From positions 106,141 to 170,140 of the forward strand of contig HF988637.1 in NCBI GenBank assembly GCA_000434675.1: a stretch of DNA of 64,000 nt. The letters are read 5' to 3'. The DNA is from Faecalibacterium sp. CAG:1138 (lineage in GTDB: Bacteria > Bacillota > Clostridia > Christensenellales > CAG-917). The position numbers and the translations under genes are program-made. Below are positions 6,113 to 21,509 of this stretch, one piece after another. The notes below the pieces were generated by a model. The model made no database searches and was not told the origin of the DNA. It saw only the letters and a list, made by a program, of their open reading frames with translations. Numbering within the stretch: the first letter of the stretch is position 1; the number at the start of each line of letters is the position of its first letter.

Positions 6113-6430
6113 ATTATAGGAAACAGAACAAGAAAATTTGCCTACAATTTTAGGGCAAGCGAACAAGAGAAAAATTTAATAGATAGCGCAATAGCAAAAA
6201 GCGGACTTACGATAACGGACTTTGTAATTCGGGCAATTATTGATAAGCCTATTACCGTGATAGAAAACGGCAACGAGATTTTAGCCGAACTAAAACGGCA
6301 AGGCAACAACCTAAACCAAGTCGTTAGAAACAGTTATAACGGCTTGGTTACGGAAGAAGAAATAAAGGCGTGCATCAAAAGTCTGAAAGAACTATACCGC
6401 AAAATATCTATTGCAATCGGAGGTGGATAA
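6113..6430 (+). CDS. mobC: MobC-family relaxosome accessory protein (ORF absent from the supplied track; non-canonical start)
   Basis: The frame is open from 6065 and has no ATG/GTG/TTG. A strong RBS AAAGGAGGG (6101-6109) precedes ATT 6113 / ATA 6116. Translation '..RTRKFAYNFRASEQEKNLIDSAIAKSGLTITDFVIRAII....LAELKRQGNNLNQVVRNSYNG..' carries the MobC signature G-x-N-L-N-Q. Stop TAA 6428-6430 overlaps ATG 6430 of the relaxase (TAATG). Confidence 0.6.
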   Translation: MIGNRTRKFAYNFRASEQEKNLIDSAIAKSGLTITDFVIRAIIDKPITVIENGNEILAELKRQGNNLNQVVRNSYNGLVTEEEIKACIKSLKELYRKISIAIGGG

Positions 6431-7575: not shown

Positions 7576-7810
7576 CGAAGCGGTAAGAGTGATGAAGCAA
7601 AGCATTACTAAAATGGCAGATAACGCCGTAATCGCTGTAAATGAAAGTGCCGGTAAGATGATGAGCGAGGTTAATAAAGCGAAGAAAGAAATTGAAAAAG
7701 CGAAAGACGGTATCCGTTTTGAAAGCGGTTTTAGAAAGTTTATGTTTTGGCTTTCACCCGTACTAGCGATTGCGCAAACCATTGCGCTTGCAATAGTGAT
7801 ATTTGGTTAA
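7166..7810 (+). CDS. Coiled-coil protein with C-terminal transmembrane anchor, nested out of frame in the relaxase 3' end
   Basis: It has its own RBS AAGGA (7155-7159) 6 nt before ATG 7166. It overlaps the relaxase by ~410 nt in another frame and is the only ORF covering 7576-7810. It ends in the TM segment 'FMFWLSPVLAIAQTIALAIVIFG'. Confidence 0.5.
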   Translation: MNKITGEYPQPIIEDQPVDISRNPAILDLQEEAKRLTAEAREAMFLQALATSREQCNDLILTQNVRIAEQTQQVKNLEWSNKKLVNELRGDVWMLSKEVKESNNQLSKSLNQTLSKISETVTDIEHQVSTATAKATDEAVRVMKQSITKMADNAVIAVNESAGKMMSEVNKAKKEIEKAKDGIRFESGFRKFMFWLSPVLAIAQTIALAIVIFG

Positions 7811-7840
7811 AAGAATTTTCTCAAAAGAATATAAAACAGC

Positions 7841-7869
7841 TTGACTATCTCGTGATATCACGGTATAAT
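7841..7869 (+). promoter_or_regulatory. Near-consensus sigma-70 promoter upstream of tnpV
   Basis: TTGACT (7841-7846), a 17-nt spacer, then TATAAT (7864-7869). Confidence 0.6.
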
Positions 7870-7899
7870 GTAGCTACAATAAATCTAAGGGAGGGTTTT

Positions 7900-8262
7900 A
7901 TGAACGTAGAAGAAATCATTAAAAAAGCGGAAAGAAACGAAGGGTTGACTGTGGAAGAAGTAAAAATCTATCAACAAGCAGTTAAACCTATAAAGCACGT
8001 TTACGGCAAGTATGGAACGCTTGCAAAACAGTATATTGAAGAGCATAACTTTGGTAAATTGTTAAGTTTAGCAGGGCAGTTGCCTGAATATTTGCACGGA
8101 GTAGATAAAGCCGCCGAAGAACTTTATGACGTTATGTGGGACAAACTTTCTAAAAGCGAACAGTATTGCCCTACGGGTAATTACTTGGAAGACGTTAAAA
8201 GAATTAACGCTATGAAACAAGTGATTGAAGAAGAGATTTTAAGCGAAATAGTTTATATTTAA
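7900..8262 (+). CDS. tnpV: TnpV-like transposon-encoded protein
   Basis: 'YGKYGTLAKQYIEEHNFGKLLSLAGQLPEYLHGVDKAAEELYD...INAMKQVIEEEILSEIVYI' resembles the TnpV family of Tn4451/Tn4453-type mobilisable transposons. RBS GGGAGGG precedes ATG 7900; the track start at 7747 overlaps the upstream gene. Confidence 0.6.
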   Translation: MNVEEIIKKAERNEGLTVEEVKIYQQAVKPIKHVYGKYGTLAKQYIEEHNFGKLLSLAGQLPEYLHGVDKAAEELYDVMWDKLSKSEQYCPTGNYLEDVKRINAMKQVIEEEILSEIVYI

Positions 8263-8630: not shown

Positions 8631-8906
8631 TTGAATTATAAGGAATTAAATTTAAGAGAAGAAAAATTAAATAATGAAGTGGAAAATCAAGGTTGCTACA
8701 AAGCCCAAAACGTGGAGAAAATCGACAAGTCAAAAATAAATATGGAGGTGTTAAATAAGATTATCGCGTTTAAGATGTTAGAGATTATGCGTGATAACGA
8801 AATGATTGACGAGCGAGAATACGCCAAAATCGAAAAGAAGCGTTCTCAGTTTGGGGAAAGTGTAGTAAAGCAAAATAAATTATTTAAAGGAGGCGATTTA
8901 ACTTGA
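8631..8906 (+). CDS. Hypothetical protein upstream of and overlapping the serine recombinase start
   Basis: 91-aa ORF with TTG start after RBS AAGGAGAA. It overlaps the next gene by 4 nt. No motif recognised. Confidence 0.35.
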   Translation: MNYKELNLREEKLNNEVENQGCYKAQNVEKIDKSKINMEVLNKIIAFKMLEIMRDNEMIDEREYAKIEKKRSQFGESVVKQNKLFKGGDLT

Positions 8907-10678
8907 TTGAAAACGGAATGGTAATGCCCACTAACGTTAATTTTAACAGGGCAAGGCAAAGAAGAGTGGTTTTCTACGGACGAGTAAGCACGGAACACGA
9001 AGCGCAACTTTCGGCGTTAGAAAATCAGATGCAATGGTACGACGACGTGGCGGATAGAAATCCTAATTGGTATGTTATTAAGAAATATATCGACGAAGGG
9101 ATTACGGGAACGCAAGCGAAAAAGCGACCTGCATTTTTAAGGATGATACAAGACGCTAAACAAAAAAAGTTCGATTTAATCGTAACGAGAGAAGTGTGTA
9201 GATTTGCAAGAAACACGGTTGATACGCTTGTTGTTACGAGAGAGTTAAAAGAGTACGGCATCGAAGTCTATTTTGTGGAAGACAACATTTGGACGATGGA
9301 CGGAGACGGAGAATTAAGACTCACGATTATGGCAACGCTTGCGCAAGAAGAAAGCAGAAAAATTTCCGAACGTGTTCGAGCAGGGCAGAAAATCAGTAGA
9401 GACAAAGGCGTTTTGTATGGAAGTGGTAATATTCTTGGTTATGATAGGGACAAGGCAAAAGGAACTTACGTAATCAACGAAGAACAAGCCGAAACGGTGC
9501 GTATGATTTACGATATGTATTCGGCAGGCAAAGGAATATCTCAAATTCGTGACGAGATGATACGACTTAAAAGAAAAGATAGTTCGGGGTTAGTTAGATG
9601 GGAGAATGCGAAAGTATCACGAGTACTACATAACTCAACCTATAAAGGCTATCCTGCCTACTTAAAATCACGAAGAAATAATTTCCTTGACCAAAAAATT
9701 ATTTTAAACCGTGACGAAGATACCTATCTTTACGTAAAAGGCGATTTTGAGCCGATTATATCCGAAGAGCAATGGGATAGATGCAAGCAAATTAGAGAGC
9801 AACGTACAAGGTATAGAAAATTTCGCACGGAAAACGGGGAAGTTCTTCACAAAACGGGCATTCACGAAAGTAGCGACGTTTGGACGAAGAAATTAAAATG
9901 TAGATGCGGTTATAAAATGCGCAAAAACAAATGGCGTAAGAATAAAAACGGCGAAGTCACCTATGGATATAAATGCTATAACCAACTTAACTATGGTTCT
10001 AAGGATATTAGAATTGAAGCAGGGATTGACGATTCAAAAAGTTGTAATCTTAGAGAAATATGCGATTGGAAATTAGAAATGATGGCAAGGCATATTTTTG
10101 CAGGGTTATGGGGTAACAAGAAAGATATTCTAAATAACGTGTCCTCTTTATATCAAATCGGTGTGTTTCAAGAATATCAAAAAGCGGCGGAAATTAAGGC
10201 AACGGTTGATAAAGAGATAGCAAAGTTAGACGAAAAACTAAAACGCTTAACTCGTATGCGCTTGGAAGACGAAATTCCAAAAGAGTCTTACTTAGAACTC
10301 AAAAAGGAAATTGAGCAAGAGAAAATCGAACTTATAAACAAAAGGCGTATTCTTGATGCGGGGATGGTTCCAAACGAAGACGGGGAAGAAGAGCCTGCAA
10401 AAAAGGTGGAAGACTTCTTGTTGTCGAAAATGGATTTTACCGAACACTACGTAGATAGAGAAGTGATTAAACAGTTCGTTCATACCATTGTTCCCGTAAC
10501 GGAAACGTGCTTTAATTGGTATATGAACTTTGACTTAATTGACGTGCCAAACGACATGAAAAAGTTAGTATGGGAATTTACGATTGATTATAAATCGGCA
10601 AGGTCTTATAGAAAGGAAAAGAACGGTATGCTTAGACCAAATCAATGGCAAGATTTAACGGTAAAAGTGTTTATATAA
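8903..10678 (+). CDS. Large serine recombinase (TnpX/phage-integrase type)
   Basis: Resolvase catalytic domain: 'VVFYGRVSTEHEAQ' (catalytic Ser) and 'DLIVTREVCRFARN'. A recombinase domain follows, then the Cys-rich 'KCRCGYKMRKNKW...YKCYN' zinc ribbon and a C-terminal coiled coil. Total 591 aa. Confidence 0.9.
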   Translation: MIENGMVMPTNVNFNRARQRRVVFYGRVSTEHEAQLSALENQMQWYDDVADRNPNWYVIKKYIDEGITGTQAKKRPAFLRMIQDAKQKKFDLIVTREVCRFARNTVDTLVVTRELKEYGIEVYFVEDNIWTMDGDGELRLTIMATLAQEESRKISERVRAGQKISRDKGVLYGSGNILGYDRDKAKGTYVINEEQAETVRMIYDMYSAGKGISQIRDEMIRLKRKDSSGLVRWENAKVSRVLHNSTYKGYPAYLKSRRNNFLDQKIILNRDEDTYLYVKGDFEPIISEEQWDRCKQIREQRTRYRKFRTENGEVLHKTGIHESSDVWTKKLKCRCGYKMRKNKWRKNKNGEVTYGYKCYNQLNYGSKDIRIEAGIDDSKSCNLREICDWKLEMMARHIFAGLWGNKKDILNNVSSLYQIGVFQEYQKAAEIKATVDKEIAKLDEKLKRLTRMRLEDEIPKESYLELKKEIEQEKIELINKRRILDAGMVPNEDGEEEPAKKVEDFLLSKMDFTEHYVDREVIKQFVHTIVPVTETCFNWYMNFDLIDVPNDMKKLVWEFTIDYKSARSYRKEKNGMLRPNQWQDLTVKVFI

Positions 10679-10905: not shown

Positions 10906-10940
10906 AGCAGTCATTCTTGCGAAAGAGTGACTGCTTTTTT
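10906..10940 (+). terminator. Rho-independent terminator downstream of the serine recombinase
   Basis: AGCAGTCA (10906-10913) pairs with TGACTGCT (10928-10935), followed by a T-run. Confidence 0.6.
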
Positions 10941-11061
10941 CTCTGCATTTAGTTCGTCAAAACTCGAAAAATACCCTAAAAAACGGGGGTGGTCAGAAAA
11001 ATGTTACACTTTCCCGTATATACGGATACAGGTAAAAGAGGGCGATAAAAGGAGCGTTTTT

Positions 11062-11616
11062 ATGGTAAAATATATACTTATGATAGAATATCTTTTGAAA
11101 AACAACAACTATTCTCAAGTTGCTACGCTATGCGGATGTTCGCGAATGACGGTATGGCGGGTCTTGCAGCGCATTGATTTTTTGAGTATTTCGCTTGACG
11201 AGATAAAGGAAATGAAGGAAGAAGAACTTCGCTTTTTACTGTTTCCCGAACGGATAAAAAAAGGTAACGGTTATTTGATACCCGACTTCAAATGGGAAGA
11301 ATTTCAAATGAGGAAACATCAATCTTCACTTCGGTTATGTTGGCGAAGATATTGCAAACGCGCTTTGAAACAAAATCTTAAAGCGTATAGTTGGGCAAGC
11401 TTTGTTTTCTTCTATGGTCAATTTCGTAAGCCGTGTTCTGATGAAGATGATCCAAAAGATAAAGTGAGAAACAAGTTGAAACATTATAATTTAATGCTGT
11501 CATATTGCAATCCAAACGGCGAGCAATATCAAAAGTTAAAGAAAGAAAAGGAAGAGTGGCTTAAATCACTACACCTTGACGAAAGCAAAATAGTAGACAA
11601 AACCTATGAGTTATAG
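11062..11616 (+). pseudogene. IS21-family transposase (IstA) N-terminal HTH fragment, lacking the DDE domain
   Basis: 'SQVATLCGCSRMTVWRVL', then '..LFPER.....YLIPDFKWEEFQMRKHQSSLRLCWRRY......AYSWASFVFFY', matches the IstA N-terminal layout (HTH, then LFP..PD...L.LLW.EY...YSYS.F). The ORF ends ~60 aa later with no catalytic domain and no istB. Confidence 0.5.
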
Positions 11617-11856: not shown

Positions 11857-12791
11857 ATGAAATACAAAGATTGGTTGGACGTATGGTTTGCGAACTACAT
11901 AGAGCCTTCGTCTAAAACGAAAACGTGCGAAAGATATTCGGAGATTATCGAAAAGCACTTGAAGGTAAAGTTGGGCGAGTACGAGCTTGAAGAACTGTCG
12001 CCCATCGTCATACAGAAGTATATTACCGAACTTATGCAGTCGGGCAATCTGACAACCGGAAAGGGGTTAGCGGCTAATTCCGTAAACAGGATTATTACGG
12101 TTATTCAGAATTCTCTGAAACTTGCGTATACGCTCGGAGAGCTAAAAGAGTACACGACAGACAAAATCAGACTACCGAAAACGAAAGAGAAAGAAGTATC
12201 CTGTTTTTCGCTTGCCGAACAGAAGAAGATAGAGCAGGCGGCGTTATCGAGTAAGAAGCGTAAATTCATCGGGATCGTGATTTGTCTTTATTCGGGTTGC
12301 GTATCGGAGAATTGCTTGCGCTTACTTGGGCAGATATTGATTTCACGAAAGGAACGCTTGCGGTGAACAAAACCTGCCACGACGGGCGAGATGAAAACGG
12401 GAATCTCTGCCGGATCACGGACTTGCCGAAAACAACTTCTTCCAAAAGAATGATTCCGCTTCCGAAGCAGTTGCTTCCCGTTCTGAAAGAATATAAGAGA
12501 AAAAGCATTTCGGAGTATGTTGTGGAATCGGAAAAGGGCGAGCCGCCTACGGTGCGATCTTATCAGAGAACCTTTGAACTTTTGCAAAAGCGTTTGCATA
12601 TTGAGCGTAAAGGTTTCCACTCGCTTCGGCATACGTTTGCTACACGCGCTTTGGAATGCGGGATGGACGTGAAAACATTGGCGGAGATATTGGGGCATAA
12701 AAACGCCACGGTAACGCTGAACAGATACGCCCATTCGCTTATGGAACACAAGCAGGATATGATGAATAAGCTCGGCAAAATTTTCAACTAA
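11857..12791 (+). pseudogene. Tyrosine site-specific recombinase (integrase/invertase family) interrupted by a 1-nt frameshift near 12297
   Basis: The N-terminal SAM-like domain (ORF 11857..12366) reads '..GIVICLYSG'. The text then continues in the next frame as 'LRIGELLALTWADIDF...' (ORF ..12791). The catalytic residues are in 'HSLRHTFATRALECG...LGHKNATVTLNRYAH'. The junction is at 'tcgggttgcg'. Confidence 0.8.
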
Positions 12792-12793
12792 AA

Positions 12794-12999
12794 AAGCCGT
12801 CTGTTAAAGCAATAGGTGAACAAAACCATAGACTTCGGACACCTATCGAGAGTATTTACGAATTTTATTATTTTTCTGACCGCGCGAAAGCACTGAACAT
12901 CGACTTTACTACCGTTTTATGGTATAATAAACATAATATTTGAGCCGTCTATTGCTTTAATAGGCGAACAAAATTCTGCGAGATAATTCACCTATCGGG
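12794..12999 (+). repeat. Module 1: ~57-nt structured repeat units R1 (12794-12850) and R2 (12942-12999) bracketing a promoter; candidate invertible promoter
   Basis: R1 core is CCGTCTGTT-AAAGC-AATAGGTG (12797-12818). R2 core is CCGTCTATT-GCTTT-AATAGGCG (12945-12966). The central pentamers are reverse complements, which gives a perfect 12-bp inverted repeat TTAAAGCAATAG (12804-12815 vs 12949-12960). Confidence 0.6.
12900..12928 (+). promoter_or_regulatory. Extended -10 promoter inside module 1, pointing at the SLOG gene
   Basis: TCGACT (12900-12905), a 17-nt spacer, then TGgTATAAT (12920-12928). Confidence 0.55.
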
Positions 13000-13009
13000 A
13001 GTCATTGAA

Positions 13010-13480
13010 TTGGATATTTTTCGGGTTTCATTTATAGGTCATAGAGTAGTGTACGAGTACCGGCAAGTCGAAGAAGAACTTGACGAAGTAATCGAATTAC
13101 TGCACCGTAAATATGGGTTTATAGACTTTAACGTGGGACGAAACGGCGAGTTTGACGAACTTGCCACACAAGCCGTCAGACGATTCCGAAGAGAATGGGA
13201 AGAGTGGTGCGAGCTTACGCTTGTCGAACCGTATCCCGTGGCGAACTTGGATATTATAGAGAAGTCTTATGATAGCGTTATTATCCCGACCGATAGGAAA
13301 TGCCATTACAAAGCGGCGATAGGAGAACGCAACAAATGGCTTGCCGAGAATTGCGATATGATGGTCGTCTATATCAAGCGTGATTATGGCGGTGCGTATA
13401 AATGCTATAAGTACGCACAGGAACTTGGTGTGCCGATTATGAATATAGCGGATAATATCAAAAATAATTACGAAAAGTAA
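13010..13480 (+). CDS. SLOG-superfamily / DUF1273-like (YpsA-type) protein
   Basis: 156 aa with TTG start after GGGAG. 'VSFIGHR' (compare the xTGHR start of DUF1273 proteins), 'VGRNGEFDELATQAV', '..ERNKWLAENCDMMVVYI...GGAYKCYKYAQELGVPIMNI' follow the Rossmann-like YpsA/DprA-LOG layout. Confidence 0.5.
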   Translation: MDIFRVSFIGHRVVYEYRQVEEELDEVIELLHRKYGFIDFNVGRNGEFDELATQAVRRFRREWEEWCELTLVEPYPVANLDIIEKSYDSVIIPTDRKCHYKAAIGERNKWLAENCDMMVVYIKRDYGGAYKCYKYAQELGVPIMNIADNIKNNYEK

Positions 13481-13535
13481 AAGTAGCGAAAGGTCGGATT
13501 TTTCAACCTTTTTCGCTTGGATAATGTTAGTTAAA

Positions 13536-13740
13536 AAGCCGTCTATTCGCATAATAGGCGAACAATCGAAAGAGTTGTGTTCACCTATCGAAAAGATTTA
13601 TGGAAAAACAAGAGATTTTCACTTGCGCAAAAAGGCTTTATATTGACCTTTCTTCTTTTTTATGGTATAATATAACATAGATTAAAGCCGCCTATTATGC
13701 GAATAGGCGAACAAAATAAAGTGTGTTTGTTCGTCTATCC
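13536..13740 (+). repeat. Module 2: repeat units R3 (13536-13592) and R4 (13685-13740) bracketing the hsdM promoter; candidate invertible promoter
   Basis: R3 core is CCGTCTATT-CGCAT-AATAGGCG (13539-13560). R4 core is CCGCCTATT-ATGCG-AATAGGCG (13688-13709). The pentamers are reverse complements, which gives a perfect 15-bp inverted repeat CTATTCGCATAATAG (13543-13557 vs 13692-13706). Confidence 0.6.
13643..13671 (+). promoter_or_regulatory. Near-consensus promoter inside module 2, pointing at hsdM
   Basis: TTGACC (13643-13648), a 17-nt spacer, then TATAAT (13666-13671), with TG at 13663-13664. Confidence 0.65.
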
Positions 13741-13788
13741 AAAGCAAGAAGCGGTAAATAAAAAGCCGAGAGCAGAGGATAAAGCACG

Positions 13789-15876
13789 ATGAGCGAAAAC
13801 AAGATACTTGATACAATGTGGGACGATAACCCGATAGACATCACGCAGGAAGCGAATTTTATATGGAGCATTGCCAACAAGTTGCGCGGCTCATATATGC
13901 CAGATAAATACGGCGACGTCGTAATTCCTATGACGATTCTGCGCCGTTTCGAGTGTGCGCTTGAAGCCACAAAGCAGGCGGTGTTAAAAGCCTATCAGTC
14001 AAACCCGAATTACCCGTCGAAAGCACTTTGCAAAATCGCGGGGTTTTCGTTCTATAACACGAGCGAGTACGACTTAAAAGAACTCTGCAACGATTCCAAG
14101 CATATTGCGGCGAACTTCAAAAATTATATCAGCGGTTTTTCGGCTAACGTAAAGGACATTTTTGCCGAACTTGAAATGGACAAGCATATCGACAAAATGG
14201 AAAAGGACGGCTGTCTGTATTCCGTTGTCGAGGCGTTTTCCGTGCTTGACCTATCCATAAAAACTTACGACAGTATCAAGATGGGATATATTTTTGAAAA
14301 CCTGATCGGCAGATTTTATCAGAACGTGGACGCCGGACAATTTTATACGGGCAGAGATATTATCAAATTGCTCGTAGAAATTTTGATGGCAGAAGGTTGC
14401 GACGATATTTTCGACAGCCACAAGGTTATTACCGTTCTCGACCAAGCCTGCGGAACGGGCGGTATGCTTTCCACGGCGTATACCTACATAAAACACTATA
14501 ATCCTACGGCGGAAGTCAAACTGTTCGGGCAGGAATTTATGGGGCAGTCTTACGCGGTAGGGCTTGCTGAAATGCTCATTAAAAATCAGGACTCGGATAA
14601 TTTCCGTCACGTCGATACGTTCAAAACCGATTGCTTTGCCGATACGAAAATGCGTTTCGTCATCGAAAACCCGCCGTTCGGCACACCGTGGTCGGGTAAA
14701 GACGCAAAGGACGGACAGGAGCAAGCCGTGCGCGACGAATACGCCAAAGGCGAAACGGGCAGATGGGGACACGGACTTCCGAGCGGTGGCGACTCACAAA
14801 TGATTTTCTTGCAGTCCGCCGTGGACAAAATGGACGACTTTTGCGGCAGAGCGGCGATTATCGAAAACGGCTCGCCGCTGTTTAACGGCGATACCGCTTC
14901 GGGTGAAAGTCAGATTCGCCGTTGGCTTTTGGAAAGCGACCTTATTGAAGCGATTATCGCTTTGCCGACCGATTTGTTCTACAACACGGGCATTCAGACC
15001 TACGTTTGGATTCTCTCGAAAAATAAGCGCAAAGAACGCAAAGGCAAAATACAACTCATCAACGCCGCCGAGATTTACCATAAACTGCGTAAAGCCGTCG
15101 GCAACAAGAAAAACGAAATTACGAGAGAGGACAGAAAGAGAATTACGCACCTTTACGCCGATTTCGTGCCGAGCGACCTTTGCAAGATTTACGATAACAC
15201 GGAGTTTCTTTACAAGGAATATGCCGTTATGCAACCGCTTCAACGCAGTTACGCTATCACGGAAGAGCGTATCGAGAAAATGCTGATGAAAGGCGCGCTT
15301 TCGGGCGTTTACGACGAAGCAAAGATTGCCGACTACGAAAGTCAGGGTGTTGCGCTTGCCGATAAGGATAAGAAAAAATACGAAGAAATGCTTGAAAGAA
15401 AGCCGTTATATGAGGACATTCTGCAAACGCTGAAAGAGCATATCTCGGACAAGGTGTATAAAGAACCGGAAAGTTTCATCAAGTGCCTTTCGGGAATTTT
15501 GTCGTGCGATAAAAAACTGACAGAGCGTATCGCGGACGGGCTTTCCGAGATGGACAAAACGGCGGAAATTCAGCGTGATAAAAAGGGCAATATTATTTAC
15601 GACAAAGAAACGCGCGACACCGAAATTGTGAAATATACCGAGGATATAGAAACCTATATGGCGCGTGAAGTGCTGCCTTACGTTCCGGACGCGAAATGGT
15701 TTTGGGAAGAAAATCTCGGCGCGAAAAAGCCCGTGATAAAAATCGGCGCAGAAATACCTTTTACAAGATATTTCTACAAGTACACTGAGCCTGAAAAGAG
15801 CGAAGTGTTGGAAGAAAAATTCCTAACGCTTGAAGAATCTGTTTCGGCTCGTATTGCCACATTATTCAAAAAGTGA
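13789..15876 (+). CDS. hsdM: Type I restriction-modification system, DNA methyltransferase subunit M (long form)
   Basis: SAM motif I 'VLDQACGTGGML' and catalytic motif IV 'VIENPPFG'. 695 aa. Followed directly by hsdS. Confidence 0.92.
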   Translation: MSENKILDTMWDDNPIDITQEANFIWSIANKLRGSYMPDKYGDVVIPMTILRRFECALEATKQAVLKAYQSNPNYPSKALCKIAGFSFYNTSEYDLKELCNDSKHIAANFKNYISGFSANVKDIFAELEMDKHIDKMEKDGCLYSVVEAFSVLDLSIKTYDSIKMGYIFENLIGRFYQNVDAGQFYTGRDIIKLLVEILMAEGCDDIFDSHKVITVLDQACGTGGMLSTAYTYIKHYNPTAEVKLFGQEFMGQSYAVGLAEMLIKNQDSDNFRHVDTFKTDCFADTKMRFVIENPPFGTPWSGKDAKDGQEQAVRDEYAKGETGRWGHGLPSGGDSQMIFLQSAVDKMDDFCGRAAIIENGSPLFNGDTASGESQIRRWLLESDLIEAIIALPTDLFYNTGIQTYVWILSKNKRKERKGKIQLINAAEIYHKLRKAVGNKKNEITREDRKRITHLYADFVPSDLCKIYDNTEFLYKEYAVMQPLQRSYAITEERIEKMLMKGALSGVYDEAKIADYESQGVALADKDKKKYEEMLERKPLYEDILQTLKEHISDKVYKEPESFIKCLSGILSCDKKLTERIADGLSEMDKTAEIQRDKKGNIIYDKETRDTEIVKYTEDIETYMAREVLPYVPDAKWFWEENLGAKKPVIKIGAEIPFTRYFYKYTEPEKSEVLEEKFLTLEESVSARIATLFKK

Positions 15877-15884
15877 GGTGCAAT

Positions 15885-17132
15885 ATGAGAGAGATGAAAG
15901 ACAGCGGAATATCTTGGGTAGGAGAGATACCCAAAGAGTGGAGTGTTTGGCGCAATAAATATATTTTTAAAATAACAAAGGATATTGTTTTGCCAAGCAA
16001 AAGTTACCAACTTTTATCGTTGACTACAACCGGAATAAAAGAAAAAGATGAAAACGATAATGGTGGAAAAGTGCCTGAAAATTATGATGGATATCAAATT
16101 GTTAAAGAAAATGATTTGGTAATGTGTCTATTTGATCTTGATTGTTCGGCAGTCTTTTCGGGTTTAAGCCCGTATAACGGTATGATTTCCCCGGCATACA
16201 AGGTCTTAAAAGTAAAGAAACGTATAGCAAACGAGCAGTATTATAGGTATTGGTTTAATTATGTTGGTTCAAAACGTTTTTATAAGCAATACTCTAAAAG
16301 TTTGAGATTCACGTTAAATGCTGATGAGTTTAATCGCTTATTTTCGCTTTTACCACCGCTTGACGAGCAACAGAGAATTGCGGAGTTTTTGGATAGGGAG
16401 TGCGGGAAGATTGACGGATTGAAAGCGGATATTCAGGCGCAGATTGATACGCTTGAACAATATAAGCGTTCCGTAATTACCGAAGCCGTTACTCACGGTC
16501 TGAATCCGTCCGCCCCGATGAAAGACAGCGGTATTCCGTGGGTGGGACAATTTCCAACTCATTGGACAAAGAAAAAGGGGAAGTATATTCTTCGTTATAT
16601 GTCTAAACCCGTAAAGCAAGATGACGGTGTTATAACCTGTTTCAGGGATGGAGAGGTTACGCTTCGCAGTAATCGCCGAGAAGATGGTTTTACGATGGCA
16701 GACAAAGAAATTGGTTATCAAGGCGTTGATGTGGGAGATTTGGTTGTTCACGGAATGGACGGTTTTGCCGGTGCTATCGGAATTTCGGATTCAAGAGGCA
16801 AAGCGTCACCTGTGCTAAACGTCTTAAATACAAAGCAAAATAAAAAATACATAATGTATTATTTGAGAAGTATGGCGTATGGGGATGTTTTTACGGCTTT
16901 ATCGACAGGAATCAGAGTACGTTCTTGCGATTTGAGGTGGAACAAACTTGCCGAATTGCTATATCCGTTGCCGCCGATAGATGAGCAAAATAATATTGTA
17001 AATTATATTGATGAGCAAATTGCTCGAACAAACGAGATTATCGCGGATAAAAAATCGCAAATCGAAACGCTTGACGGCTACAAAAAATCGCTCATTTACG
17101 AATATGTTACGGGCAAAAAGGAGGTGGGATAA
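15885..17132 (+). CDS. hsdS: Type I R-M specificity subunit S (two target-recognition domains)
   Basis: Duplicated conserved spacer regions 'LPPLDEQQRIAEFLDRECGKIDGL...LEQYKRSVITEAVTHGL' and 'LPPIDEQNNIVNYIDEQIARTNEII...LDGYKKSLIYEYVTGKK'. ATG 15885 follows RBS GAGGTG. Confidence 0.9.
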   Translation: MREMKDSGISWVGEIPKEWSVWRNKYIFKITKDIVLPSKSYQLLSLTTTGIKEKDENDNGGKVPENYDGYQIVKENDLVMCLFDLDCSAVFSGLSPYNGMISPAYKVLKVKKRIANEQYYRYWFNYVGSKRFYKQYSKSLRFTLNADEFNRLFSLLPPLDEQQRIAEFLDRECGKIDGLKADIQAQIDTLEQYKRSVITEAVTHGLNPSAPMKDSGIPWVGQFPTHWTKKKGKYILRYMSKPVKQDDGVITCFRDGEVTLRSNRREDGFTMADKEIGYQGVDVGDLVVHGMDGFAGAIGISDSRGKASPVLNVLNTKQNKKYIMYYLRSMAYGDVFTALSTGIRVRSCDLRWNKLAELLYPLPPIDEQNNIVNYIDEQIARTNEIIADKKSQIETLDGYKKSLIYEYVTGKKEVG

Positions 17133-17133
17133 A

Positions 17134-17484
17134 ATGGATATAAATTTAATGAGCGGTAATTTTTGTTCGGCTGAGCAGTATCATAGAGCCTTAGAAGAAG
17201 CCGAAAAAGAACAAAAACAGCAAAAAATCGAAGAAGAAAGAAAAATAGAAATATTAAATTCGCCGATTGTAGAACAATTGCGATCATTGGTTGAGCAAAG
17301 TAATAAACAAGTCAATGTTTTGCAAGAAGAAAACGAAATACGAAAACAGCAGGTGGCTAAACTTGAAGAAAGCGAAGAAAGAGCCAGAAAGGAAGCAAGA
17401 TCAGCGAAAAATCTCAGCATCATTTCATTTTGCGTGAGTACGGCAATAGCAATTGCTTCGGTGATTGTGTCGATAGTAAAATAA
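17134..17484 (+). CDS. Tail-anchored coiled-coil membrane protein (unknown function) embedded in the R-M operon
   Basis: ATG 17134 lies 1 nt after the hsdS stop (17130-17132). 116 aa: a Glu/Lys/Gln-rich heptad-like region, then the C-terminal TM 'LSIISFCVSTAIAIASVIVSIV'. The track's 17008 start overlaps hsdS and is rejected. Confidence 0.6.
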   Translation: MDINLMSGNFCSAEQYHRALEEAEKEQKQQKIEEERKIEILNSPIVEQLRSLVEQSNKQVNVLQEENEIRKQQVAKLEESEERARKEARSAKNLSIISFCVSTAIAIASVIVSIVK

Positions 17485-17505
17485 AATGAAAGGAGGGATA
17501 GAATA

Positions 17506-18438
17506 ATGTGGTGGGAATGGATGATATTTGCCATTGTGCTTGTGATTGTTCCATTTGGAGTAAAGGGTTTGAAAAAGCTTGCTTTTTCGGAAATTACACC
17601 GACAAAAGAACAAGAGCGTTATGCACGGAATAAAGCTGTTTTATATACGGCATTCTTTTGGCTCTGCGATTTGTTTGGCATGTCTTTTATCATAGACAAT
17701 ATCGCATGTCGCTTTGCGTTTGGCATTATGGTTATGATTTGTATCTTCGCAAATTTAGCAGTGCAACCTGTTGTTGGTGCAAAAGGTTTTTTGTCAAAAT
17801 TGGGGTTGATTGGTGACTTTTTGTGCGGTGTTGGATTTTCTATATATCTGATTTACATAATCCCAAACAAAGATTTGAGAACGGTTGTTTTGGCAATTGT
17901 CGCAGCGGTATATGGCGGAATGATGACTTTGGTCGGCGTTGCGTGGACAATAAAGAAAGGTGACAAAGATAGAAAAGAAGATTTACAGCGACTCGAAAAT
18001 GAACGAAAAGAAGAGGAACGTATAAAATATAGTCCTGTATTCAGCGTTGTGGAAAAAAACGCTGATCCTCAAAAACGAATATTAATTAATTTAAGCACGG
18101 TTGAAAACATAAATAAGATTACTACTAACAAAAAAAACAAGAACAACATCGAACTTTATCCAGTACTCATAGAAAATTCAAGCAAAATAGAGTTTTATGT
18201 GTACGGTTTTTTGTTCGATGGCGTTTTCTATGCGACACAAGAAAAATATCTCATAAAGAAAGATTATGGTTTTTGTGTTTATTTCGATGATGATTTGAGT
18301 TTTACATGCGAACATAAGATGGCTATTTGTGTAGAGGATTTGATAGAAAACAAATACGAGGCTGAATTAAATGGAATCGTTGAAAATAAAACTCTATACA
18401 TACGAGGAAATAAAAAATTGCAATTGATGGGAGCATAA
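17506..18438 (+). CDS. Polytopic membrane protein (about 5 N-terminal TM helices + ~140-aa soluble C-terminal domain), unknown function, embedded in the R-M operon
   Basis: RBS AAAGGAGGG (17489-17497) precedes ATG 17506. Stop 18436-18438 lies 1 nt before the hsdR ATG 18440. No recognisable catalytic motif. Visibly more AT-rich than flanking hsdM/hsdR. Confidence 0.6.
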   Translation: MWWEWMIFAIVLVIVPFGVKGLKKLAFSEITPTKEQERYARNKAVLYTAFFWLCDLFGMSFIIDNIACRFAFGIMVMICIFANLAVQPVVGAKGFLSKLGLIGDFLCGVGFSIYLIYIIPNKDLRTVVLAIVAAVYGGMMTLVGVAWTIKKGDKDRKEDLQRLENERKEEERIKYSPVFSVVEKNADPQKRILINLSTVENINKITTNKKNKNNIELYPVLIENSSKIEFYVYGFLFDGVFYATQEKYLIKKDYGFCVYFDDDLSFTCEHKMAICVEDLIENKYEAELNGIVENKTLYIRGNKKLQLMGA

Positions 18439-18439
18439 A

Positions 18440-21421
18440 ATGAATAATATACTCACAGAAAAAGAATATCAGCGGTTTATCATAGATAAGCTCGTTGCTG
18501 AAAACGGCTACGTAGAGCGGAAAAACGTGAAGTTCGACCGTAAGTTTGCTATCGACCGTGAAATGCTGTTCAAGTTTCTTGACGATACACAGCCCGAAGC
18601 GATGGCGCAGATTCGCAAGGTGTATAAAGACGTTACCGAAGATACGGTGGTGAACTTTATCAATACCGAAATCACGAAAGCGAAAAGCAGTCTGTTATCC
18701 GTATTAAAACACGGCGTGGAAATCGCGGGGTATAAGTTAGACCTTATGTATACCAAGCCCGCAACGACTTTCAATAAAGACTTGCTTATAAAATACAATA
18801 AAAATATCTTTTCCGTAATGGAAGAAGTGTGGGCGAGTGATACCGAGAGAATCGACCTTGTGGTTTTCCTGAACGGCTTTGCGATTATGTCGTTTGAACT
18901 CAAATGCAATTTTGCGGGGCAGAGCTATCAGGACGCGATTTTGCAATACCGCACGCAAAGAAACCCGAAAACGCGGTTGTTCTATTTCAAGGCGGGGTGT
19001 ATCGTCAACTTTGCAATGGACTTGGAAGAAGTGTATATGACGACGCGCCTTGCGAACGACGGCACGTTCTTTCTGCCGTTCAATATGGGTAGCGGCAACG
19101 GTATTGACGCGGGCAAGGGCAATCCCGTTTATCCCGACAAATATTCCGTCTATTATATGTGGGAAGATATACTCAAAAAAGATACGGTGTTAGACCTTAT
19201 CTCGGAGTTTATCTTTATCGAGCGCAAGGAAGAAACGGACGAAGTAACGGGCAAAACCACGGTAAAAGAAAAGGTGGTTTTTCCGCGCTATCATCAACTT
19301 GACGTGATCCGCAAAACGATAGCGGACGTGGAAGTCAACCGCACTTCGCAAAACTATCTGATACAGCACAGCGCGGGTTCGGGCAAAACGAATTCCATTG
19401 CGTGGCTTGCACACAGGCTTTCTTCGCTTCACGACGAAGAAAACAAAATCGTTTTTGATAATATCATCATCTGCACCGACCGCGTGGTGGTGGACAGGCA
19501 GTTGCAGGACGCGGTGCGCGGTATCGAACACAAGACGGGGCTTATTAAGGTGATGGACGATAAATGTTCGTCGGCAGACCTTGCTCTCGCGCTTCAAAGC
19601 AATATCAAGATTATCGGCACGACGATACAGAAATTTCCGTATATCGTGGACACGGTGAGAAATCTGAAAAACAAGACTTTTGCCGTGATTATCGACGAAG
19701 CGCATTCTTCCACCGCCGGAAAAGATATGGCGGCAATCACGATGACGCTCGGCGCGGGCGAAGTGGATTTTGAAGAAGGCGTTATCGATACGCAGGATAT
19801 GATTGCGGACGAAATCCGTCGCAACGGCAAGCAAAAGAACGTTTCTATGTTTGCCTTTACCGCAACACCGAAAGCGACTACTCTCGACTTGTTCGGCAGA
19901 TTGAACGCAAAAGGGCAGAAAGAAGCCTTCCACTTGTATTCGATGAAACAGGCGATAGAAGAAGGTTTTATTTTAGACGTGCTTGCCAACTTCACCGAAT
20001 ACAATACGTATTATCGGCTGAACAAAGAGATCTCGGAAGATCCGAAGTATAAGACGGCGGAAGCCAAAAAGCAAATCGCGCGGTTTGTGGAACTGCACGA
20101 AACGAATATCGCGCAAAGGGTGGAAGTGATTGTCGAACATTTCCGCACGACGGTTTTATCTGAACTCGGCGGAATGGCAAAGGCAATGGTGGTAACGGCT
20201 TCCCGCGCAAGTGCGGTGAAGTACCGACAGGCGTTTGAAGATTACGTTACCAAGAAAGGCTACGCGGGTATTCACGCGCTTGTGGCATTTTCGGGAAAAG
20301 TAAAACTGCCCGACGACGAAGCGGAATACACGGAAACGCTTCTGAACGGATTTTCGGAAGATAAACTGCCTAAAAAGTTTGATTCGGACGATTACAATGT
20401 TTTGCTTGTGGCGAACAAGTATCAGACGGGCTTCGACCAACCGAAACTTTGCGCAATGTACGTTTTGAAGAAGTTGCGCGGGGTGAACGCGGTGCAGACG
20501 TTGTCGCGCCTGAACCGTATCTGCCCGCCGTTTGAGAAAAAGACGTTTGTTCTCGATTTCGTGAATACATACGACGATATTGTCAAGGCGTTTGCGCCGT
20601 ATTATACCACGACGTTGCTTGCAAATTCGGTTACGCCGACGGCGGTATACGACTTGGAAGCGAAACTCGACGGATATATGATTTTAGATCCTTACGACTT
20701 GAATATGGCGGCAGAGATTATCTACAAAAAGATTATCGAATCAAAGGACAAAAATCAGTTGCGTTTCTATCTGCAACGCGCCGAGAAAAAGCTGAAAGAA
20801 TACGAATTGATGAAACAAATCGAGATAATGGCGGTCGTGCGGCATTTTATCCGGTTCTACGAGTTCCTGATACAGGTATCGTGTTTTGAGGACGTGGAGC
20901 TGCATAAAAAGTATTTGTTTTTGACTTATTTCGTGTCGTTCGTAAATATTTCTCAGCCGGGCGGCGGTTTCGATTTATCAGGCAAGATAAAAGCGGACAA
21001 CTTTATCCAAAAGAAAGGCGAAGAACATAAAACAACCAAAGTTACGCCCGATCCGATCGTAAAACTGCCGACGGCGGACGACTTTAATCTGAACGAGGAC
21101 AAAGTAAAACGCCTTTCGGAGATTATCGACGAAATCAACAGCAAAACGGGCAAAACCTACGATAACGACGTCGTAATCAAGGCAATGCTTCAAATCAAAG
21201 ACTTGATGATGAAGTCCGAAAAACTGCGCGAGAGTGCGAAAGCAAACACGGAAAGCGACTTTGCGTTTTCGTATTTCGACGGTATCGACGACGCGCTGAT
21301 CGAGGGACTTTCGCAAAATCAGGACTTTTTCTCGTTGCTTCTTTCTAACGACGAAATGAAGAAAGAGGTTCTTGGTATCTTCGTCAGCGAGATTTACAAG
21401 AGCTTGAGAGAAGATAAATAA
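18440..21421 (+). CDS. hsdR: Type I R-M restriction subunit R (nuclease + SF2 helicase/translocase)
   Basis: N-terminal PD-(D/E)xK-like 'RIDLVVFLNGFAIMSFELK'. Helicase motif I 'QHSAGSGKTNSIAW' and motif II 'VIIDEAHSS'. 993 aa. Confidence 0.92.
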   Translation: MNNILTEKEYQRFIIDKLVAENGYVERKNVKFDRKFAIDREMLFKFLDDTQPEAMAQIRKVYKDVTEDTVVNFINTEITKAKSSLLSVLKHGVEIAGYKLDLMYTKPATTFNKDLLIKYNKNIFSVMEEVWASDTERIDLVVFLNGFAIMSFELKCNFAGQSYQDAILQYRTQRNPKTRLFYFKAGCIVNFAMDLEEVYMTTRLANDGTFFLPFNMGSGNGIDAGKGNPVYPDKYSVYYMWEDILKKDTVLDLISEFIFIERKEETDEVTGKTTVKEKVVFPRYHQLDVIRKTIADVEVNRTSQNYLIQHSAGSGKTNSIAWLAHRLSSLHDEENKIVFDNIIICTDRVVVDRQLQDAVRGIEHKTGLIKVMDDKCSSADLALALQSNIKIIGTTIQKFPYIVDTVRNLKNKTFAVIIDEAHSSTAGKDMAAITMTLGAGEVDFEEGVIDTQDMIADEIRRNGKQKNVSMFAFTATPKATTLDLFGRLNAKGQKEAFHLYSMKQAIEEGFILDVLANFTEYNTYYRLNKEISEDPKYKTAEAKKQIARFVELHETNIAQRVEVIVEHFRTTVLSELGGMAKAMVVTASRASAVKYRQAFEDYVTKKGYAGIHALVAFSGKVKLPDDEAEYTETLLNGFSEDKLPKKFDSDDYNVLLVANKYQTGFDQPKLCAMYVLKKLRGVNAVQTLSRLNRICPPFEKKTFVLDFVNTYDDIVKAFAPYYTTTLLANSVTPTAVYDLEAKLDGYMILDPYDLNMAAEIIYKKIIESKDKNQLRFYLQRAEKKLKEYELMKQIEIMAVVRHFIRFYEFLIQVSCFEDVELHKKYLFLTYFVSFVNISQPGGGFDLSGKIKADNFIQKKGEEHKTTKVTPDPIVKLPTADDFNLNEDKVKRLSEIIDEINSKTGKTYDNDVVIKAMLQIKDLMMKSEKLRESAKANTESDFAFSYFDGIDDALIEGLSQNQDFFSLLLSNDEMKKEVLGIFVSEIYKSLREDK

Positions 21422-21509
21422 TTTCGGATATCGCAGCATTTTTTCGGCTGCCGAGTGCAAAAATATAATTAAAATGATTTGGAGGAAAATATGTCAAACC
21501 GAATAGCAA

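What the first reader, a model, noticed from the sequence alone, without database searches (positions are those of the whole stretch)
13536..13740. Module 2 detail: the only evident promoter of hsdM-hsdS-orfA-orfB-hsdR sits inside the second bracketed segment
TTGACC-17-TATAAT (13643-13671) lies between the 15-bp perfect inverted repeat CTATTCGCATAATAG (13543-13557 / 13692-13706). The five downstream genes are separated by 1-21 nt and I see no other obvious promoter. Flipping this ~150-bp piece would therefore silence methylase, specificity, restriction and the two embedded membrane genes together.
Phase-variable Type I systems are usually described as hsdS shufflons or SSR switches. A whole-operon promoter inversion would be a different route to a phasevarion.
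Basis: partly seen in the sequence, partly recalled or inferred. Interest (0 to 1): 0.7.

Follow-up and report, generated by a model that had tools for sequence, protein, structure and literature searches.

The report
Flippable promoter driving a restriction-modification operon
A 150-base DNA segment carrying the only good promoter of a complete Type I restriction-modification operon is a genuine recombinase-flipped switch, found in the opposite orientation in related gut-bacterial elements, but in this genome the neighbouring recombinase gene is broken, so the switch is probably stuck ON.

Summary
The repeat is 18 nt perfect (13543-13560 / 13689-13706) and is the only such repeat in the window. 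It brackets TTGACC-17-TGgTATAAT, the only strong promoter ahead of hsdM-hsdS-orfA-orfB-hsdR.

Each repeat is a recombination site: palindromic arms (CGYCTATT/AATAGGCG) around a 5-nt asymmetric core (CGCAT vs ATGCG). A tyrosine recombinase gene lies just upstream, followed by a first, similar module (core AAAGC/GCTTT) that drives a YpsA-like gene (g156).

In four independent relatives (L016, L109, L110, L111) the module-2 interior is inverted, with breakpoints inside the cores, while the flanking g156 and hsdM stay colinear. Flipping the window in silico reproduces L110 with one mismatch. More than 30 relatives show module 1 inverted. A distant subfamily shows both states with intact recombinases.

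All close relatives with an intact recombinase have the promoters pointing backwards (OFF). The window's clone has a 1-nt deletion in the recombinase and both promoters forward, so it is most likely locked ON.

A sister module drives brxA-brxB. I found no published promoter inverton controlling a whole Type I operon. Verdict: real, and a new variant of a known kind.

The parts
11857..12791 (+). Tyrosine recombinase gene, split by a 1-nt deletion (one T lost at about 12297; GGTTTGCG in intact copies, GGTTGCG here). N-terminal part 11857-12366 (SAM-like core-binding domain); C-terminal part in another frame, 12282/12297-12791 (catalytic domain).
   Evidence: Pfam PF14659 and PF00589 fall on two ORFs in different frames. 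The fused 311-aa reconstruction is colinear with intact homologues at 97% identity through ...ICLYSGLRIGELLAL.... Base-level comparison with intact loci shows the lost T. The same split is present in at least 6 independent assemblies.
12798..12818 (+). Module 1 left recombination site (CGTCTGTT-AAAGC-AATAGGTG; core 12806-12810).
   Evidence: The same site is the inversion junction in more than 30 relatives.
12900..12928 (+). Module 1 promoter TCGACT-17-TGgTATAAT, facing g156.
   Evidence: 10/12 with TG. In relatives it reads TTGACT-17-TGgTATAAT and lies on the opposite strand.
12946..12966 (+). Module 1 right recombination site (CGTCTATT-GCTTT-AATAGGCG; core 12954-12958, the reverse complement of the left core).
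13010..13480 (+). g156: a 156-aa YpsA/DprA-like SLOG-fold protein, and the conserved first-tier output of module 1.
   Evidence: Homologues at 36-66% identity sit directly after the recombinase and first module in many distant loci. 3 of 15 family members match Pfam YpsA PF06908. AlphaFold2 model has pLDDT 88.8. Top PDB fold hit is B. subtilis YpsA 2nx2 (TM 0.72, E 5e-7), then DprA.
13540..13560 (+). Module 2 left recombination site (CGTCTATT-CGCAT-AATAGGCG; core 13548-13552).
   Evidence: It is the inversion junction in L016, L109, L110 and L111.
13582..13590 (+). Accessory half-site CACCTATCG of site 2L, about 30 nt right of the core site. In the present orientation it lies inside the invertible segment.
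   Evidence: Direct-repeat family D2. Its position is conserved across the family.
13643..13671 (+). Module 2 promoter TTGACC-17-TGgTATAAT (-35 at 13643-13648, TG at 13663-13664, -10 at 13666-13671), facing hsdM.
   Evidence: 11/12 with TG. It is the only strong + strand promoter before or within the operon. It lies on the opposite strand in L016, L109, L110 and L111.
13689..13709 (+). Module 2 right recombination site (CGCCTATT-ATGCG-AATAGGCG; core 13697-13701, the reverse complement of the left core).
13730..13739 (+). Accessory half-site TTCGTCTATC of site 2R, outside the invertible segment, in the hsdM 5' leader.
   Evidence: (I12).
13789..21421 (+). Cargo operon: hsdM 13789-15876, hsdS 15873-17132, orfA about 17134-17484 (coiled coil plus C-terminal transmembrane helix), orfB 17506-18438 (multi-transmembrane), hsdR 18440-21421.
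   Evidence: Pfam HsdM_N/N6_Mtase, Methylase_S, and HSDR_N/ResIII/SWI2_SNF2. There is no internal strong promoter, no hsdS duplication and no SSR. orfA and orfB match no curated family.

Best explanation
Window 13540-13709 is a site-specific invertible promoter (an inverton) that acts as the ON/OFF switch of a complete Type I restriction-modification operon. It belongs to a two-tier switch carried on a mobilizable island. A tyrosine recombinase (11857-12791) recognises core sites made of two inverted half-sites (CGYCTATT / AATAGGCG) around a 5-nt asymmetric core. The two sites of a module carry reverse-complementary cores, so recombination inverts the roughly 149 nt between them. Module 1 (core AAAGC) and module 2 (core CGCAT) have different cores, which should keep them from recombining with each other (inferred from the known spacer-homology rule of tyrosine recombinases). 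In the orientation seen here, the extended -10 promoter reads through the right site into hsdM. In the opposite orientation, the promoter reads into the left site. That site then becomes a 13-bp GC-rich palindrome followed by a T-run (terminator-like), and the right site becomes a long palindrome with accessory half-sites on both sides, just upstream of hsdM. The operon is then left without a promoter (inferred). Relatives with an intact recombinase are almost all assembled in this backward state. The window's clone has lost one base in the recombinase gene and has both modules forward. It is most likely a phase-locked ON variant that expresses g156 and the R-M operon constitutively. What is shown: the sites, the promoter, inversion with breakpoints in the cores among natural variants, the recombinase linkage, and the frameshift. 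What is inferred: which enzyme performs the inversion, the transcriptional consequences, the directional bias, and the locked state.
For: Anatomy: establish the unique 18-nt perfect inverted repeat, the palindromic arms with rc cores, and the 11/12 TG promoter. Recombinase: Pfam SAM-like and catalytic domains lie directly upstream, and the fused protein has the R..HxxR..H..Y motifs and is colinear with abundant intact homologues. Inversion of module 2: the interior lies on the opposite strand (96-99% identity) with colinear g156 and hsdM (99%) in L016, L109, L110 and L111; the junction sequences are as predicted; the in-silico flip between cores reproduces L110 from the left site to the hsdM ATG with 1 mismatch, and over a 301-nt window gives 11 mismatches against 94 unflipped. 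Inversion of module 1 is seen in more than 30 loci. An independent subfamily shows both states with intact 307-aa recombinases: L157 versus L163/L167, 8 versus 80 mismatches of 497 after the in-silico flip. Family-wide, about 90 site pairs next to recombinase homologues (58-100% identity) enclose TTGACT-17-TGnTATAAT, and the accessory half-sites are conserved in position. State-specific hairpins: the left junction in the flipped state folds at -13.6 kcal/mol with a T5-6 tail on the strand the flipped promoter transcribes; the right junction folds at -44 kcal/mol; the present state has only 8-bp stems. No other promoter was found, and no shufflon or SSR. The frameshift is present in every forward-state contig and in no backward-state locus. 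L109 carries the exact deletion product expected from the forward state of module 1. Several contigs end exactly at the outer edge of a site.
Against: No read-level data exist, so switching within one population is not shown directly. The orientation differences are between assemblies from different samples. All nine contigs of the window's clone have the same orientation, and the cis recombinase is a pseudogene, so in this genome the element may never flip. The forward/forward state linked to the frameshift is a single clone (n = 1 evolutionary event). Nearly all intact-recombinase assemblies are in one state, which could also mean that inversion is rare. The promoter and terminator roles come from consensus scans and folding, not from transcript data. 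A weak undetected promoter or read-through from g156 could keep low-level hsdM expression in the flipped state. That the adjacent recombinase is the enzyme responsible rests on linkage alone.
Confidence: 0.75

Rival explanations
1. The element still switches in this genome. Either a paralogous recombinase encoded elsewhere in the chromosome acts in trans on these sites, or low-level -1 frameshifting or transcriptional slippage at GGGTTG restores enough recombinase.
For: Several genomes carry two or more paralogues of this recombinase family, for example two loci each in CASERZ01 (L033, L044) and SVUK01 (L037, L077). One recombinase evidently serves sites with different cores. Both reading frames of the split gene remain otherwise intact.
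Against: No paralogue lies in the 64-kb window. The frameshift site is not a canonical slippery heptamer or a long homopolymer. All nine contigs of the clone are forward at both modules, and none of their ends falls at a site edge. The forward/forward state is otherwise never seen as a consensus among close relatives, which fits a locked state.
Confidence: 0.15
2. The orientation differences are old, fixed inversions (or rare RecA-dependent events between the short repeats) and not programmed, reversible switching. On this view the repeats are relics and the promoter is in effect constitutive in each lineage.
For: Consensus orientation is uniform within each close lineage, and no within-sample heterogeneity was measured.
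Against: An 18-21-nt repeat is far too short for efficient homologous recombination. The site architecture (palindromic arms, rc cores that differ between modules, accessory half-sites at fixed distance) is conserved next to recombinase homologues from 58 to 100% identity while the core sequences vary, which indicates selection on the recombination function. The same inversion is seen independently in a distant subfamily among near-identical elements from different samples. The R-M genes remain intact in backward-state loci. Contig breaks fall at site edges.
Confidence: 0.07
3. The palindromic sites are regulatory hairpins, operators or terminators (for example repressor-binding sites or attenuators flanking a fixed promoter) and are not recombination sites.
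For: Each site is a hairpin, and on the minus strand it scores as terminator-like.
Against: This does not explain the reverse-complementary cores within each pair (about 1/1024 per pair by chance, seen in both modules and in about 90 pairs family-wide). It also does not explain the natural variants in which the interior is exactly inverted between the cores. A hairpin or terminator role is compatible with the inverton model as a second function.
Confidence: 0.02
4. The opposite orientations are assembly artefacts caused by the inverted repeats.
For: Inverted repeats can confuse assemblers, and several contigs break in or near the modules.
Against: The repeat (21 nt) is shorter than the k-mers used (31 to 141), so orientation is resolved by k-mers that span the junctions. 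More than 30 independent assemblies made with different assemblers agree by lineage. The junction sequences are exact and reproducible.
Confidence: 0.01

Closest known systems
E. coli fimS switch (FimB/FimE tyrosine recombinases, invertible promoter of type 1 fimbriae)
   Same: A promoter sits on a short invertible segment. Tyrosine recombinase genes lie next to it. Sequences flanking the repeats differ between the two orientations, which in fim underlies FimE's ON-to-OFF bias (established knowledge). Most genomes are assembled OFF.
   Different: The segment here is 149 nt against 314 bp, and the sites are 21-nt with palindromic arms around a 5-nt core against 9-bp repeats. Accessory half-sites share the core half-site sequence. 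There is one recombinase gene and two tandem modules with different cores. The cargo is a Type I R-M operon, not fimbriae. The recombinase shows no detectable close relationship to FimB/E beyond the Pfam family.
Gut-bacterial promoter invertons (Bacteroides Mpi/Tsr-controlled promoters; Clostridioides difficile RecV switches such as cwpV, flgB, cmrRST, pdcB; the PhaseFinder catalogue)
   Same: Small invertible regulatory segments in gut anaerobes, often with a locally encoded recombinase. Loss of the recombinase gives phase-locked strains (recV mutants, PMC7446863). State-dependent terminators are known for cwpV (from my own knowledge).
   Different: Reported cargo is mostly surface structures, signalling genes and some resistance genes. 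I found no report of a complete hsdMSR or brxAB operon behind such a promoter. The site family CGYCTATT-N5-AATAGRCG and this recombinase clade (Clostridia, Christensenellales and Oscillospiraceae MAGs) did not appear in the held literature.
Type I hsdS shufflons / epigenetic invertons (S. pneumoniae SpnD39III-PsrA, B. fragilis, Mycoplasma pulmonis hsd loci)
   Same: Type I R-M phase variation driven by a locus-encoded tyrosine recombinase acting on inverted repeats. In M. pulmonis, inversions also switch R-M activity on and off (Dybvig & Yu 1994, cited in PMC11892184).
   Different: Those systems recombine hsdS coding sequences to change specificity. Here there is a single hsdS, no repeats in coding sequence, and what flips is the operon's promoter, so M, S and R (plus two embedded genes) would be switched together.
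Phage lambda-type attP/attB versus attL/attR site logic, and engineered integrase 'flip' memory modules
   Same: In one state there is a simple site without accessory arms and a complex site with arms on both sides. In the other state there are two hybrid sites with one arm each. This is the arrangement produced when attP and attB are placed in inverted orientation.
   Different: The accessory half-sites have the same sequence as the core half-sites, and the recombinase lacks a separate arm-binding domain. No Xis-like directionality factor has been identified. This is an analogy of architecture only.
Heterospecific lox/FRT spacer variants
   Same: One recombinase serves several site pairs that differ only in the central spacer (AAAGC, CGCAT, CGTGT, AGCAC and others). 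By the spacer-homology rule this confines recombination to cognate pairs.
   Different: The arrangement here is natural, not engineered, and the spacer is 5 nt between the palindromic arms. Insulation between modules is inferred, not tested. L106 shows that the modules can still recombine through their shared arms.

Membership tests
Invertible promoter (inverton) | A short segment bounded by inverted repeats | tested here: met
   18-nt perfect / 21-nt inverted repeat at 13540-13560 and 13689-13709, unique in the window.
Invertible promoter (inverton) | A promoter inside the segment, oriented towards a downstream gene in one state | tested here: met
   TTGACC-17-TGgTATAAT at 13643-13671, scoring 11/12. 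This is a consensus match only; no transcript data are available.
Invertible promoter (inverton) | Both orientations occur in nature with breakpoints in the repeats | tested here: met
   L016, L109, L110 and L111 are inverted relative to the window and L001-L008. The two orientations come from different assemblies, not from one population.
Invertible promoter (inverton) | Both orientations coexist within a clonal population (reversible switching) | not testable with these tools
   No read data are available. The only indirect hints are contig ends at site edges and the L157 versus L163/L167 pair.
Invertible promoter (inverton) | A site-specific recombinase is responsible | tested here: inconclusive
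   A tyrosine recombinase is adjacent in the window and in about 160 related loci. Catalysis was not tested, and the window's copy is frameshifted.
Tyrosine recombinase (Phage_integrase, PF00589) | Intact ORF with the catalytic R...HxxR...H/W...Y residues and an N-terminal core-binding domain | tested here: not met
   The domains and motifs are present (GLRIGEL, HSLRH, LGH, RYAH), but they are split over two frames by a 1-nt deletion. Intact in relatives.
Type I restriction-modification system | HsdM, HsdS and HsdR genes are all present | tested here: met
   Pfam HsdM_N plus N6_Mtase; Methylase_S (two TRD stretches); HSDR_N plus ResIII/SWI2_SNF2 plus T1R_D3.
hsdS shufflon / SSR-type phase-variable Type I system | Multiple hsdS copies or fragments with inverted repeats, or simple-sequence repeats in hsdM or hsdS | tested here: not met
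   There is a single hsdS. No inverted repeat above 80-88% over 16-25 nt lies in 13700-22500, no SSR is present, and the only homopolymer is A8 in orfB.
Phasevarion | Phase-variable methyltransferase expression that changes expression of a regulon | not testable with these tools
   This needs methylome and transcriptome data from ON and OFF populations.
YpsA/DUF1273 SLOG family (for g156) | Sequence or fold match to YpsA | tested here: met
   The window protein itself falls below Pfam thresholds, but 3 of 15 homologues match PF06908. The AlphaFold2 model's best PDB hit is YpsA 2nx2, TM 0.72, E 5e-7.

The most novel reading that the evidence does not exclude
This is an undescribed family of two-tier, integrase-like promoter switches on mobile elements of gut Clostridia. 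They toggle whole phage-defence operons (Type I R-M here, BREX in sister elements) and surface proteins. One tyrosine recombinase serves several modules that are insulated from each other by heterospecific 5-nt cores. An attP/attB-versus-attL/attR arrangement of accessory half-sites gives the switch a strong OFF bias. The conserved first-tier output, a YpsA/DprA-like SLOG protein, is a functional partner: for example a directionality factor, or a licensing or restriction-alleviation factor that lets a cell survive turning on restriction over an unmethylated chromosome.
Probability: 0.25. Interest if true: 0.85.

Novelty: new variant of a known kind. Interest (0 to 1): 0.7.

Why it matters
Phase-variable R-M systems are known to act through repeat-tract slippage in a methyltransferase gene, or through shuffling of hsdS specificity domains (review PMC11868660). 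A promoter flip that turns methylase, specificity and nuclease subunits on and off together is a different logic. It would make phage defence, and any methylation-dependent gene regulation, an all-or-none bet-hedging trait carried on a mobilizable island.

It also raises a concrete and testable problem: how a cell with an unmethylated chromosome survives switching on a co-transcribed restriction enzyme.

The family supplies natural ON, OFF, locked-ON (recombinase frameshift) and promoter-deleted variants of the same element. It also supplies a compact recombinase and site set with heterospecific cores, which could be useful for building independent genetic switches in Clostridia.

For metagenomics, the defence repertoire of these gut bacteria cannot be read from gene content alone.

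Tried and rejected
1. Looking for the opposite orientation among near-identical contigs found through the exact g156 protein: all nine loci (L001-L009) have the window's orientation.

2. An exact-protein look-up of HsdM found nothing on record. The look-up of the abundant g156 variant P0127 returned one short contig.

3. A scan of viral contigs with the promoter interior gave 0 hits.

4. Contig ends as evidence of within-sample heterogeneity. A strict site filter gave only 2 of 76 ends at sites (P 0.01-0.08). A uniform null gives a strong enrichment of ends within 275 nt (24 of 76), but short contigs inflate that figure. I kept only the four or five exact coincidences, as suggestive evidence.

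5. Pfam, NCBIfam and PADLOC gave nothing significant for g156, orfA, orfB or the 283-aa ORF. A PDB sequence-profile search for g156 gave nothing. Only the homologue scan and the fold search identified g156.

6. Considered and rejected: an hsdS shufflon or SSR switch; an internal or alternative promoter; an integron attC-like or REP-like element (no supporting feature, and the inverted natural variants explain the repeats); programmed ribosomal frameshifting in the recombinase (no slippery heptamer).

7. The Jiang et al. 2019 PhaseFinder paper could not be read. I therefore cannot exclude that its catalogue lists invertons near R-M genes.

Full report
OBSERVATION. CTATTCGCATAATAG lies at 13543-13557 and its reverse complement at 13692-13706. 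The perfect inverted repeat is actually 18 nt (13543-13560 / 13689-13706), and 21 nt with one mismatch. It is the only perfect inverted repeat of 15 nt or more with arms within 300 nt in the whole 64-kb window, and 29 of 30 dinucleotide-preserving shuffles contained none. Between the arms lies TTGACC-17-TATAAT (13643-13671). It is preceded by TG, scores 11/12, and is the best promoter-like site in the region. From 13700 to 22500 the number of promoter-like sites equals the shuffle expectation. No + strand site there scores 10/12 or better with a TG, and none lies between 13707 and the hsdM ATG. The downstream genes are HsdM, HsdS, two unannotatable genes and HsdR by Pfam. They are packed with a 4-nt overlap or gaps of 1-21 nt.

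Four similar units lie in the same direction, at 12793, 12941, 13535 and 13684. Each reads AGCCGYCTRTT - 5 nt - AATAGGYGAACAA, and a further half-site (CACCTATCG or CGTCTATCC) follows about 30 nt to the right. The units form two pairs 148-149 nt apart. Within a pair the flanks are direct repeats and only the 5-nt core is reverse-complementary: AAAGC/GCTTT for module 1 and CGCAT/ATGCG for module 2. Each module contains an extended -10 promoter facing downstream. Two inverted half-sites around a short asymmetric spacer is the standard layout of a tyrosine-recombinase core site. Directly upstream, with its stop codon abutting module 1, is a tyrosine recombinase gene whose SAM-like and catalytic domains lie in different frames. 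Joining the frames gives a 311-aa protein with the GLRIGEL, HSLRH, LGH and RYAH motifs. It is colinear with abundant intact homologues at 97% identity. The defect is the loss of one T: GGTTTGCG or GGATTGCG in intact copies, GGTTGCG here. From this anatomy I predicted the flipped state. The left site should become a short perfect palindrome (AAAGCCGYCTATT-core-AATAGRCGGCTTT). The right site should become a long palindrome with accessory half-sites on both sides.

TEST BY NATURAL VARIANTS. Contigs encoding the identical g156 protein (L001-L009, from several human-gut samples) are essentially the same clone. All share the frameshift and the window's orientation at both modules. Contigs carrying intact recombinases (L010, L011) have module 1 in the opposite orientation, with exactly the predicted junctions.

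I then scanned the species-representative genomes and the metagenome contigs with a recombinase alignment, which gave 160 loci. In every close locus with an intact recombinase (more than 30), the module-1 interior is on the opposite strand relative to the recombinase gene and g156. In L016, L109, L110 and L111, the module-2 interior (96-99% identical to the window's) is on the opposite strand, while g156 and hsdM (99% identical) remain colinear. Inverting the window in silico between the two cores reproduces L110 from the left site to the hsdM start codon with a single mismatch. Over a 301-nt comparison this is 11 mismatches, against 94 without the flip. The breakpoints therefore lie inside the 5-nt cores, as expected for conservative site-specific recombination.

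A distant subfamily (recombinase about 61% identical, intact at 307 aa) shows both states among near-identical elements from different samples. L157 flipped in silico matches L163 with 8 mismatches in 497 nt against 80 unflipped, and a 170-nt block is 100% identical in reverse orientation. L109 carries a single module-1 site whose sequence is the exact deletion product of the two sites in the forward state, with 1 mismatch in 115. This shows that the forward state has occurred in an intact-recombinase lineage.

FAMILY. About 90 site pairs next to recombinase homologues of 58-100% identity enclose a TTGACT-17-TGnTATAAT promoter. The pairs are 127-171 nt apart, have reverse-complementary cores of many different sequences, and come from MAGs labelled Clostridia, Christensenellales, Oscillospiraceae and others. 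The accessory half-sites about 30 nt from the core are conserved in position. In the common state they flank the right-hand site on both sides and are absent from the left-hand site. In the rare forward examples (the window and L163), each site has one. This matches attP/attB versus attL/attR logic, although the recombinase has no separate arm-binding domain.

A homologue of g156 follows the first module in many distant loci. g156 is a divergent YpsA/DprA-type SLOG protein. Second-tier cargo varies: the Type I operon in the window, L016 and L109-L111; brxA-brxB in L094 and L097, with a truncated brxA in L093; and a BspA-type LRR surface protein in L027. The whole region sits in a low-GC island carrying a relaxase, TnpV and a large serine recombinase. 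This is a Tn4451-like mobilizable element, inserted next to dnaG-rpoD.

HOW IT MOST LIKELY WORKS. Shown: the sites, the promoter, the recombinase linkage, and inversion at the cores. Inferred: the rest.

The recombinase inverts each module independently, because recombination requires matching cores; this follows the established spacer-homology rule for Cre, FLP and Xer-type enzymes. In the forward state, the promoter transcribes through an 8-bp hairpin into hsdM. The leader is about 110 nt and the RBS AGAGGA lies at 13774-13779.

In the backward state, the promoter transcribes into the left junction. That junction then folds as a 13-bp GC-rich stem followed by T5-T6 on that strand, which is terminator-like. 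The right junction forms a hairpin of about -44 kcal/mol directly upstream of the cargo gene. With no other promoter, the operon should be silent.

Nearly all consensus assemblies with an intact recombinase are backward. This suggests a strong OFF bias, whether intrinsic (from the asymmetric accessory sites, as with FimE) or selective.

The window's clone is the only close lineage that is forward at both modules, and the only one with a broken recombinase. The simplest reading is that a rare ON/ON cell lost the recombinase and became locked ON, like recV mutants of C. difficile (PMC7446863). This association rests on one evolutionary event.

COMPARISON WITH WHAT IS KNOWN. Promoter invertons with a local tyrosine recombinase are a known kind (fimS; Bacteroides and C. 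difficile switches). Type I phase variation by inversion is also known, but it acts on hsdS coding sequences (PMC7672463, PMC7641763, PMC5903667, PMC7394358). A 2025 review lists only SSR switching and recombinational shuffling of target-recognition domains for R-M systems (PMC11868660). BREX inversions have been reported within pglX (PMC9881135). Seven full-text searches found no promoter inverton controlling a whole hsdMSR or brx operon, and nothing on this recombinase and site family. I could not read the PhaseFinder paper itself, so a catalogue-level listing cannot be excluded. The operon shows none of the usual Type I phase-variation features.

VERDICT. There are two qualifications: this particular copy is probably fixed ON, and the transcriptional and epigenetic consequences are untested. 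It is a new variant of a known kind, with several unusual features: whole defence operons as cargo, two tiers with heterospecific cores, att-like accessory architecture, a conserved SLOG partner, and natural locked and deleted derivatives. My confidence that 13540-13709 is a bona fide invertible promoter element is about 0.9. My confidence that it is currently locked in this genome is about 0.75-0.8. My confidence that flipping silences the operon is about 0.75. The 0.75 given for the best explanation is for the whole statement taken together. Interest: 0.7.

Noticed in passing
window 12290-12300 (recombinase gene 11857-12791): There is a 1-nt deletion (one T of GGTTTGCG) just before the codons for the catalytic-arginine motif GLRIGEL. 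It splits the tyrosine recombinase into two ORFs. It is fixed in all contigs of this clone and absent from all relatives whose modules are in the opposite orientation.
   Followed up: yes
window 12798-12966 (module 1) and 13010-13480 (g156): A first invertible promoter module (core AAAGC/GCTTT) drives a conserved 156-aa YpsA/DprA-like SLOG protein. The order recombinase, then inverton, then g156 is conserved down to about 36% g156 identity, which suggests that g156 is a functional partner of the switch.
   Followed up: partly
L109:5173-5187: Module 1 is reduced to a single hybrid site (core ACTTT). It equals the deletion product of the two sites in the forward state, so the promoter has been excised. 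This indicates both that the forward state occurred in an intact-recombinase lineage and that this state is prone to deletion.
   Followed up: yes
L106:6094-6191: A crossover within the shared right arm (AATAGGCGAACAAAAT) of sites 1R and 2R has deleted g156 and module 2. hsdM now sits 97 nt behind module 1.
   Followed up: yes
L010:2243-2720 and L012; window 13362-13379 / 14182-14200: g156 is fused to an internal piece of hsdM at a CAAGC microhomology. The g156 side of the junction (GTCGTCTATATCAAGC) contains a recombinase half-site-like CGTCTAT. Many database proteins are chimeras of g156 or recombinase N-termini with unrelated domains, which suggests a rearrangement hot spot.
   Followed up: partly
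L094:2980-4431, L097:6686-8135, L093:6686-7317: A sister second-tier module (core CGTGT/ACACG, with the same promoter) sits upstream of brxA-brxB, the first genes of BREX operons. The rest of the BREX operon is not present downstream in these loci.
   Followed up: partly
window 1-24000: This is a low-GC island (31-44% GC against about 50% for the rest). It carries a GHKL-ATPase protein (231-1712), a MobA/VirD2 relaxase (6370-7575), TnpV (7747-8262) and a large serine recombinase (8903-10678). This is a Tn4451-like mobilizable element, ending next to host dnaG (22985-24787) and rpoD (24806-25861).
   Followed up: partly
window 15873-18438; L002, L109-L111: hsdS is only 38-47% identical between the window and L109-L111, although hsdM and hsdR are 96-99% identical, so the specificity subunit has been swapped. 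orfB (multi-transmembrane, 17506-18438) is absent from those loci. In L002, which belongs to the same clone, an AbiJ_NTD4/Abi_C gene follows hsdM. Variable defence-like genes are therefore embedded in the operon.
   Followed up: no
3' ends of L030, L077, L134, L172 and L087: These contigs end exactly (0-3 nt) at the outer edge of a recombination-site palindrome. That is where the two orientations would diverge in an assembly graph, so this may reflect mixed orientations within those samples.
   Followed up: partly
window 13759-13768: TAAAAAGCCG, the left flank of site 2L (13532-13541), recurs just upstream of the hsdM ribosome-binding site without the rest of a site. Its significance is unknown.
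   Followed up: no
window 11062-11616 (ORF 10927-11616): An HTH_23 protein gene lies directly upstream of the recombinase. It is conserved in the close relatives (L010-L014, L111) but not in distant ones. It may be a regulator or accessory factor of the switch.
   Followed up: no
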